Shown: piece after piece, positions 30,220-30,298 of the stretch
Layout: every line of letters begins with the position of its first letter
Numbering within the stretch: the stretch's first letter is position 1
Assembly: GCF_003334355.1 (NCBI RefSeq)
Contig: NZ_QOWP01000023.1
DNA: 64,000 bases
Source: Escherichia coli
Lineage (GTDB): Bacteria; Pseudomonadota; Gammaproteobacteria; Enterobacterales; Enterobacteriaceae
Strand: one strand, 5' to 3'
The notes under the pieces: generated by a model
Database searches by the model: none
Told to the model about the DNA's origin: nothing
Seen by the model: the letters and a program-made list of their open reading frames with translations, nothing else
Translations under genes and position numbers: made by a program

Positions 30220-30298
30220 TGTTTTATCCTTATCAACATGTTTTCACCCTCTCCCTGTGGGAGAGGGCCGGGGTGAGGGCATCAAGCCGCACCCATTA

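What the first reader, a model, noticed from the sequence alone, without database searches (positions are those of the whole stretch)
30246..30266. GC-rich inverted repeat in the deoB-deoD intercistronic spacer
ccctctccc-tgt-gggagaggg forms a 9-bp stem inside the 79-bp spacer between deoB and deoD within one operon. I recall a somewhat shorter spacer in K-12, so this may be a small strain-specific insertion, or an RNA processing or stability element affecting deoD expression.
Basis: partly seen in the sequence, partly recalled or inferred. Interest (0 to 1): 0.2.

Follow-up and report, generated by a model that had tools for sequence, protein, structure and literature searches.

The report
BoxC repeat copy between deoB and deoD
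The small GC-rich palindrome between deoB and deoD is the core of a copy of BoxC, a well-known short repeat scattered around E. coli genomes; this very copy is already listed in a published catalogue, so the finding is real but ordinary.

Summary
The inverted repeat is real but lies at 30247-30267, one base off the reported coordinates. It sits in the 79-nt deoB-deoD spacer and is far beyond chance.

It is not a deo-specific element. It is the Watson-Crick core of a 53-nt BoxC repeat (also called PIT or TMECO type B), window 30240-30292. Its 34-nt core is identical to published K-12 copies near hrpB-mrcB and argF. The window is E. coli ATCC 8739, and this exact copy is no. 123 in Holder et al. 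2015, Table S8.

But this is a replacement, not a plain insertion. K-12 carries a different, terminator-like hairpin. That hairpin is ancestral: it occurs in E. albertii and E. whittamii, and hairpins hold the same position in most Enterobacterales sampled.

The BoxC allele is not strain-specific. 2490 of 5426 complete E. coli genomes carry it and 2934 carry the hairpin allele.

On the mRNA, BoxC gives a 10-bp hairpin with no U-tract and leaves the deoD ribosome-binding site free. Published tests found no promoter or terminator activity for these repeats. The most likely reading is a passenger repeat with, at most, a generic hairpin effect.

The parts
30247..30267 (.). The reported 9-bp inverted repeat, CCCTCTCCC-TGT-GGGAGAGGG. 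It is the Watson-Crick duplex core of the repeat.
   Evidence: one match in the window, 0.04 expected from shuffles.
30247..30280 (+). The 34-nt TMECO / PIT type B triplex motif, CCCTCTCCC TGT GGGAGAGGG CCG GGGTGAGGG C. The blocks are: pyrimidine 30247-30255, loop 30256-30258, purine 30259-30267, loop CCG 30268-30270, third-strand block 30271-30279. The G-rich motif reads on the + strand, which is the template strand for deo transcription.
   Evidence: exact match to the consensus, 0 of 100 shuffles; identical to K-12 TMECO nos 1 and 4 in Table 1 of PMC4666352; it equals catalogue entry no. 123, NC_010468 4021997-4022030.
30240..30292 (.). The full BoxC repeat unit, 53 nt. In mRNA sense it reads GTGCGGCTTGATG-CCCTCACCCC-GG-CCCTCTCCC-ACA-GGGAGAGGG-TGAAAAC.
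   Evidence: BLAST matches to other loci cover exactly 30240-30292 (H62, H30). The alignment with 12 other copies loses similarity outside these limits.
30246..30268 (-). Predicted mRNA hairpin, GCCCUCUCCC-ACA-GGGAGAGGGU. It has 10 pairs and dG -18.8 kcal/mol. It is followed by GAAAACAUG, so there is no U-tract.
   Evidence: The terminator scan finds nothing in the spacer.
30220..30298 (-). The deoB-deoD intercistronic spacer, 79 nt: 6 nt, then the 53-nt BoxC, then 20 nt.
30227..30231 (-). deoD Shine-Dalgarno AAGGA, at -12 to -8 from the AUG. It lies outside the repeat and is predicted to be mostly unpaired.
   Evidence: mean unpaired probability 0.85 in the BoxC allele and 0.55 in the K-12 allele.
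30299..31522 (-). deoB, phosphopentomutase.
   Evidence: ORF; RefSeq annotation of the identical NC_010468.1 sequence.
29500..30219 (-). deoD, purine-nucleoside phosphorylase.

Best explanation
The palindrome is the duplex core of one copy of the dispersed enterobacterial repeat known as BoxC, PIT element or TMECO (type B). In this E. coli lineage (ATCC 8739; about 46% of complete E. coli genomes) the 53-nt repeat has replaced the ancestral terminator-like hairpin of the deoB-deoD spacer. Shown: what the element is, where it ends, how many copies exist, how the two alleles are distributed, and that the hairpin allele is ancestral. Taken from the literature: the G-rich strand of such repeats folds into an intrastrand purine-motif triplex in vitro, no stable triplex was detected in vivo, the repeats have no promoter or terminator activity, and loci carrying them vary unusually between strains. 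Inferred: at this locus the repeat is a passenger with no deo-specific role. On the deoCABD mRNA it forms a stable 10-bp hairpin with no U-tract and well clear of the deoD ribosome-binding site. RNA polymerase should therefore read through into deoD. The only plausible RNA effect is the generic one of any stable intercistronic hairpin: slowing 3'-to-5' exonucleases and so protecting the upstream deoB segment, as REP elements do. The two-allele polymorphism fits the published local instability of these repeats.
For: Identity: exact match to the TMECO consensus. The 34-mer is identical to K-12 copies nos 1 and 4. This very copy is entry 123 of Holder et al. Table S8.

Dispersed copies: copies downstream of argF, between hrpB and mrcB, between ilvC and ppiC, and elsewhere align over 53 nt. 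Megablast finds 2-5 places per genome. The catalogue lists 20 copies in ATCC 8739.

Replacement rather than insertion. K-12 has the terminator-like hairpin GGGCGGAG-CGTTGA-CTCCGCC followed by TTTGTT.

Allele counts: 2490 genomes with BoxC against 2934 with the hairpin, out of 5426.

Ancestral state: E. albertii, E. whittamii and Escherichia sp. MOD1-EC7003 have the K-12-type spacer. Raoultella and Kosakonia have the homologous TGGATTTGGGCGGG...CCCGCCC. 66 of 73 species carry a plain hairpin in this position.

Local event: the coding flanks of the window and K-12 are identical within 85 nt of the spacer. A hairpin-allele strain, LT883142, shares all the window's deoB SNPs.

No terminator signature. 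Ribosome-binding site left free. No Rfam family. Functional background: PMC4666352.
Against: No RNA data exist here for a strain with this allele, so an effect on deoB/deoD mRNA ends or stoichiometry is untested. The ancestral hairpin is conserved in position across Enterobacterales. That suggests the slot has a function, so the BoxC hairpin might be a selected functional substitute rather than a neutral passenger. The deo copies in three genera share diagnostic substitutions (GTGCGGC, GGGT). That hints at long persistence, which a purely neutral and unstable element would not predict.
Confidence: 0.9

Rival explanations
1. The BoxC hairpin functionally substitutes for the ancestral hairpin. 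It would act as a 3'-exonuclease barrier that stabilises the deoC-deoA-deoB part of the transcript and so sets the deoB:deoD ratio, as the intercistronic REP does in malE-malF (established knowledge, recalled, not tested here).
For: A stable hairpin occupies this position in 66 of 73 Enterobacterales species. Where it is missing, the slot holds another stable palindrome: BoxC in 3 species and REP-like in 4. The BoxC hairpin (dG -18.8) is at least as stable as the K-12 hairpin (dG -14.2).
Against: There is no direct evidence. The BoxC hairpin starts 30 nt after the stop codon rather than about 8 nt, and it lacks the T-rich tail that most ancestral hairpins have. K-12 Term-seq shows no 3' end in the spacer even for the ancestral hairpin.
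Confidence: 0.2
2. One reading: a deo-specific RNA processing or stability element that regulates deoD expression.
For: It is transcribed within the operon and folds stably (z -2.6 for the 89-nt region).
Against: An identical sequence occurs at unrelated loci. 54% of E. coli genomes, including K-12, lack it. It does not overlap or sequester the deoD Shine-Dalgarno sequence or AUG in predicted folds. There is no Rfam match.
Confidence: 0.05
3. An intrinsic terminator or attenuator between deoB and deoD.
For: A GC-rich 10-bp stem.
Against: The tail GAAAACAUG has 1 T in 8. The terminator scan finds nothing in the spacer, while it does flag the K-12 allele. PIT elements showed no terminator activity in reporter tests, as summarised in PMC4666352.
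Confidence: 0.03
4. A DNA-level role: the G-rich strand forms an intrastrand triplex during replication or transcription, stalls polymerases and makes this spacer a hotspot for rearrangement.
For: All three blocks are intact and compatible with a purine-motif triplex (G.G-C, A.A-T and T.A-T triplets; read from the sequence). In vitro triplex formation and excess variability around TMECO loci are reported in PMC4666352. The locus is polymorphic. The single-stranded DNA fold has z -4.7.
Against: In vivo DMS footprinting did not detect a stable triplex (PMC4666352). Variation here is confined to the spacer, and the flanks are identical within 85 nt. Among sampled carriers the BoxC allele is 98.6-100% identical, so it is not visibly decaying.
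Confidence: 0.2
5. A chance palindrome with no significance.
For: None beyond its small size.
Against: Shuffles give 0.04 expected matches for the 21-mer and 0 of 100 for the 33-nt motif. The repeat recurs throughout E. coli genomes.
Confidence: 0.01

Closest known systems
BoxC / PIT (potential intrastrand triplex) / TMECO type B repeat of E. coli (Bergler 1992; Bachellier 1999; Hoyne and Maher 2000, 2002; Holder et al. 2015, PMC4666352)
   Same: The 34-nt core is identical to K-12 copies 1 and 4. The second loop is CCG, which defines type B. The flanking arms GTGCG..TGATG and GAAAAC are shared. It is intergenic. It varies between strains. This exact copy is catalogued as no. 123.
   Different: Nothing essential. 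Two local details stand out. It lies inside an operon, between two co-transcribed genes. Here it replaces a conserved hairpin, whereas at ilvC-ppiC it sits beside the retained terminator.
REP / BIME (PU) elements
   Same: They are also short, GC-rich, dispersed palindromes found in intercistronic and 3' regions. REP-like palindromes occupy the same deoB-deoD slot in Trabulsiella and in Enterobacter sp. JUb54. REPs are known to stabilise upstream mRNA.
   Different: The sequence family is different. No REP consensus occurs in the spacer, although there are many REPs elsewhere in the window. REPs lack the third, triplex-forming block. REPs have a known mobilising enzyme family (RAYT), whereas none is known for BoxC (recalled, not tested).
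Ancestral deoB-deoD hairpin (K-12 allele), an intrinsic-terminator-like stem-loop
   Same: It occupies the same spacer and is a comparably stable GC stem.
   Different: The sequence is unrelated. It begins about 8 nt after the stop codon and is followed by a T-rich tail. It is single-copy and specific to this locus.

Membership tests
BoxC / PIT / TMECO | Match to the consensus CCCTCNCCC N3-6 GGGNGAGGG N3 GGGNGAGGG | tested here: met
   exact match at 30247-30279, with 0 matches in 100 shuffles.
BoxC / PIT / TMECO | Type B: the second loop is CCG | tested here: met
   30268-30270 is CCG. The types are defined in PMC4666352.
BoxC / PIT / TMECO | Multiple dispersed copies in the same genome, with similarity extending to a unit of about 50-56 bp | tested here: met
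   2-5 megablast places per genome; a 53-nt unit shared with 12 other copies; 20 copies listed for ATCC 8739; the literature gives a size of 50-56 bp.
BoxC / PIT / TMECO | Intergenic location | tested here: met
   it lies wholly inside the 79-nt spacer.
BoxC / PIT / TMECO | Listed in the published catalogue of the family | tested here: met
   Table S8 no. 123, NC_010468 4021997-4022030, equals window 30247-30280.
BoxC / PIT / TMECO | Folds into an intrastrand purine-motif triplex in vitro | not testable with these tools
   The triplet compatibility can be read from the sequence. CD and NMR were done on type B oligonucleotides in PMC4666352. ViennaRNA cannot model triplexes.
REP / BIME | REP consensus GCC(G/T)GATGCG(A/G)CG with its inverted partner | tested here: not met
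   51 matches in the window with up to 2 mismatches, none of them in 30220-30298.
Intrinsic (Rho-independent) terminator | A GC-rich stem followed immediately by a U-tract | tested here: not met
   The stem is present. The tail has 1 T in 8. The scan finds no site in the spacer.
Any curated RNA family (Rfam 15) | Score at or above the family's gathering threshold | tested here: not met
   the best hit over the hairpin scores 18.6 bits against a threshold of 55.5 (mir-320, E = 0.46), which is noise.

The most novel reading that the evidence does not exclude
The deoB-deoD BoxC copies of E. coli, Escherichia sp. E1V33, Pseudocitrobacter faecalis and Citrobacter freundii M-21 share substitutions that other K-12 type-B copies lack (GTGCGGC, GGGT). 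The hairpin allele is also shared across genera. One possibility is that BoxC inserts site-specifically just after stop codons, near or into terminator-like hairpins, which would give a first clue to how this orphan repeat spreads. The other is that a spacer-sized patch has moved between genera by very short gene conversion and is kept as a roughly 46:54 polymorphism in E. coli by selection on deoB/deoD expression.
Probability: 0.1. Interest if true: 0.45.

Novelty: already known. Interest (0 to 1): 0.1.

Why it matters
It matters little. The element belongs to a repeat family described since the 1990s, and this copy is already in a published table. The analysis adds modest local facts. At this operon the repeat displaced a hairpin that is otherwise conserved across Enterobacterales. 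The two states split complete E. coli genomes about 46:54. That provides a natural allele pair for testing whether BoxC hairpins, or the ancestral hairpin, affect intra-operon mRNA stoichiometry. For genome scanning, the lesson is that CCCTCTCCC/GGGAGAGGG palindromes in enterobacterial spacers should be masked as BoxC before they are interpreted.

Tried and rejected
1. Rfam scan of 29400-31000 at E <= 10 returned only noise.

2. RNA 3'-end evidence. The curated Term-seq tables of Adams et al. 2021 (K-12) list a 3' end after deoD at 4621665 but none in the deoB-deoD spacer. K-12 lacks BoxC, so this bears only on the ancestral hairpin. The Dar and Sorek 2018 supplements are not held.

3. The idea that BoxC generally replaces terminator hairpins, tested at ilvC-ppiC. 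There the repeat replaces 14 nt between the stop codon and a retained bidirectional terminator. The generalisation is therefore not supported.

4. The idea that the BoxC allele entered E. coli on a recombined tract from another genus. The window and K-12 flanks are identical within 85 nt, and a hairpin-allele strain shares all the window's deoB SNPs. No imported tract is visible. Flank identity to P. faecalis (87-89%) and C. freundii (84-85%) is at ordinary between-genus levels.

5. An effect on deoD translation initiation. Predicted accessibility of the ribosome-binding site is similar or slightly higher with BoxC, so no occlusion is predicted.

6. Papers mentioning deoB, deoD and terminators contained nothing on the spacer hairpin. 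The only related item is that Salmonella GlnZ pairs with the first codons of deoD.

7. A search for later functional work on PIT/TMECO elements found none beyond Holder 2015.

8. My first hairpin-picking script chose weak AT hairpins in some spacers. I redid it by lowest energy.

Full report
**Observation**

The window carries CCCTCTCCC-TGT-GGGAGAGGG at 30247-30267, one base to the right of the reported coordinates. The flanking ORFs are deoB at 30299-31522 (-) and deoD at 29500-30219 (-). RefSeq annotation of the identical sequence confirms the gene names.

The palindrome is the only match in 64 kb even with three mismatches allowed. Dinucleotide-preserving shuffles give 0.04 matches on average. 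On the mRNA strand it folds into a 10-bp stem. The 89-nt region has dG -33.2 kcal/mol and z -2.6. The hairpin alone has dG -18.8 kcal/mol.

**What it is**

A megablast of the region against 5426 complete E. coli genomes showed two things. The window is 100% identical to E. coli ATCC 8739. About 46 nt around the palindrome also match elsewhere in most genomes, with a median of 2 places per genome. So the palindrome belongs to a dispersed repeat.

A literature search for BoxC led to Holder et al. 2015 (PMC4666352). They describe the repeat earlier called BoxC or PIT as 'TMECO', with the consensus CCCTCNCCC N3-6 GGGNGAGGG N3 GGGNGAGGG. The window matches this exactly at 30247-30279, with 0 matches in 100 shuffles.

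The 34-mer CCCTCTCCCTGTGGGAGAGGGCCGGGGTGAGGGC is identical to K-12 copies no. 1 (hrpB-mrcB) and no. 4 (downstream of argF) in their Table 1. It is type B, meaning the second loop is CCG. I fetched those two loci and five further K-12 BoxC loci. Aligned together, the shared unit is 53 nt, window 30240-30292. In mRNA sense it reads GTGCGGCTTGATG-CCCTCACCCC-GG-CCCTCTCCC-ACA-GGGAGAGGG-TGAAAAC. Published sizes for BoxC are 50-56 bp.

The window maps to NC_010468.1 with an offset of 3,991,750. Entry no. 123 of Holder's Supplementary Table S8 (NC_010468 4021997-4022030) is exactly window 30247-30280. Both the family and this individual copy are therefore already published.

Rfam has nothing here. The REP consensus, abundant elsewhere in the window, is absent from the spacer.

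**Comparison with K-12 and the population**

But the two spacers do not differ by a simple insertion.

- K-12 reads TGA-TGGATTT-GGGCGGAG-CGTTGA-CTCCGCC-TTTGTTATGTCACAA-AAGGATAAAACA-ATG.
- The window reads TGA-TAATGG-[53-nt BoxC]-ATGTTGAT-AAGGATAAAACA-ATG.

About 30 nt that include a different hairpin have been replaced. The K-12 hairpin is flagged as terminator-like (8 pairs, T-rich tail). Nothing in the BoxC spacer is flagged.

With junction-spanning queries, 2490 of 5426 genomes carry the BoxC allele and 2934 carry the hairpin allele. The hairpin allele has two sub-variants that differ in loop and tail but keep the stem.

Carriers of the BoxC allele include O26 and O121:H19 strains and ATCC 8739. 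Carriers of the hairpin allele include K-12 derivatives, O157:H7, O145:H28 and ATCC 25922. Holder's counts fit a repeat that expanded in only part of the species: 2 copies in CFT073, APEC O1 and ABU 83972, about 20 in K-12, B and ATCC 8739, and 29 in 55989.

**Direction of change**

I scanned one genome per species (GTDB representatives) with a degenerate pattern anchored on the deoB stop and the deoD start, allowing a spacer of 50-80 nt. It returned 73 loci.

- E. albertii, E. whittamii, Escherichia sp. MOD1-EC7003 and the E. coli representative all have the 56-nt K-12-type spacer.
- Raoultella, Kosakonia and Enterobacter sp. Bisph1 have the clearly homologous TGGATTTGGGCGGG...CCCGCCC.

The hairpin allele is therefore ancestral and BoxC is derived.

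Of the 73 species, 66 have a plain GC hairpin. Counting the K-12 spacer as well makes 67 plain hairpins, on which the following figures rest. The hairpin starts a median 8 nt after the stop codon. Median dG is -14.2 kcal/mol. There are 58 distinct stem sequences. At least 4 of the next 8 bases are T in 56 of the 67. In the 66 species spacers, the first 45 nt fold with a median z of -3.6 against shuffles.

In the other 7 species the slot holds a dispersed palindrome instead:

- BoxC in Escherichia sp. E1V33 (full motif), Pseudocitrobacter faecalis and Citrobacter freundii M-21 (third block degenerate in both).
- REP-like palindromes in two Trabulsiella, Enterobacter sp. JUb54 and a metagenome-assembled genome.

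One caveat: the scan only sees spacers of 50-80 nt with conserved anchors. Salmonella and Klebsiella, for instance, were not sampled.

**How local is the change**

Within 85 nt on either side of the spacer, the window and K-12 are identical. A hairpin-allele strain (LT883142) shares every deoB SNP of the window. The switch is therefore confined to the spacer, and no imported tract is visible.

Flanks of P. faecalis and C. freundii are 84-89% identical to the window, which is ordinary between-genus divergence. Their spacers are 92% and 81% identical.

The deo copies of all three genera share GTGCGGC and GGGT(G)AAA, where other K-12 type-B copies mostly have GTGCGCG and GGGAGAAAAC. This looks like common descent of the deo copy. 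That is odd, because the hairpin allele is also shared across genera. I could not resolve this.

**Mechanism**

*DNA level (from the literature).* The G-rich strand folds into a purine-motif intrastrand triplex in vitro. In vivo footprinting did not detect it. TMECO loci are unusually variable between strains. Earlier reporter work found no promoter or terminator activity (PMC4666352). In the window the G-rich motif is on the + strand, which is the template strand for deo transcription. All nine triplets are of the allowed types, as read from the sequence.

*RNA level (inferred).* The mRNA carries the C-rich complement. It forms a 10-bp GC hairpin followed by GAAAACAUG, so it is not an intrinsic terminator. 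The hairpin ends 26 nt before the AUG. The Shine-Dalgarno AAGGA (30227-30231) is predicted to be mostly unpaired: 0.85 against 0.55 in K-12.

I therefore expect read-through and normal deoD translation. The best-supported reading is a passenger repeat. The main alternative, to which I give about 0.2, is that any stable hairpin in this slot protects the upstream deoB message from 3' exonucleases, and that BoxC substitutes for the lost ancestral hairpin.

Term-seq in K-12 shows a 3' end after deoD but none in the spacer. Even the ancestral hairpin therefore has no demonstrated role.

**A generalisation tested and dropped**

I asked whether BoxC typically replaces terminator hairpins. At ilvC-ppiC, which is also polymorphic (2944 of 5426 genomes occupied), the empty site has 14 nt between the ilvC stop and a bidirectional terminator. 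BoxC replaces those 14 nt and leaves the terminator intact. Hairpin replacement is therefore not a rule.

**Verdict**

But that element is a catalogued BoxC/PIT/TMECO repeat, it is not strain-specific, and nothing shows it to be a deo-specific RNA element. It is already known and of low interest.

Noticed in passing
L001 335-356 (K-12 deoB-deoD spacer); loci L006-L078: The deoB-deoD spacer holds a positionally conserved GC hairpin across Enterobacterales. It starts about 8 nt after the deoB stop. There are 58 distinct stem sequences among 67 plain-hairpin spacers (66 species plus K-12), mostly with a T-rich tail. The median fold z is -3.6. It looks like a leaky terminator or decay barrier, but K-12 Term-seq shows no 3' end there. 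I know of no description of it.
   Followed up: partly
L026, L047 (Trabulsiella odontotermitis), L077 (Enterobacter sp. JUb54), L076 (MAG UBA5654): deoB-deoD spacers: REP-like palindromes (GCCGGGT...ACCCGGC) occupy the slot where other species have the plain hairpin or BoxC. Different dispersed palindromes have therefore colonised the same intercistronic position.
   Followed up: no
window 30240-30292; L068, L014, L053 spacers: The deo BoxC copies of E. coli, Escherichia sp. E1V33, P. faecalis and C. freundii M-21 share GTGCGGC and GGGT, where other K-12 type-B copies mostly have GTGCGCG and GGGAG. This suggests orthology across genera, even though the hairpin allele is also shared across genera. 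Unexplained.
   Followed up: partly
L079 (K-12 ilvC-ppiC, 3959458-3959491); L085-L087: The ilvC-ppiC BoxC copy is also polymorphic: 2944 of 5426 genomes are occupied. Empty sites have TAGCGATTCAGAGT or GTGCGATTCAGAGT between the ilvC stop and a retained bidirectional terminator. The GTGCG start of one empty allele resembles the left end of BoxC.
   Followed up: partly
window 30271-30294 (+): The third-strand block GGGTGAGGGC can also pair with the repeat's own arm GCCGCACCC, giving 5+3 bp. As single-stranded DNA or RNA the unit then folds into two adjacent hairpins. This is an alternative to the triplex.
   Followed up: no
window about 4820-4924, 18911-19052, 23303-23431, 32934-33008, 36449-36948, 44576-44699: Clusters of REP/BIME elements, the one at 36449-36948 being a large tandem array. 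They are ordinary for E. coli.
   Followed up: no
L014 about 1499-1580 (Pseudocitrobacter faecalis, just downstream of deoD): Further BoxC copies lie immediately after deoD in P. faecalis: two hairpin cores, at 1499 and 1545, the latter a complete motif.
   Followed up: no
window 30348-30360 (-), inside deoB: A terminator-like consensus hit (GCCAGACTCTGGC followed by AAAATATTTT) lies within the deoB coding sequence and is also present in K-12. The number of such hits is at chance level, so it is probably meaningless.
   Followed up: no
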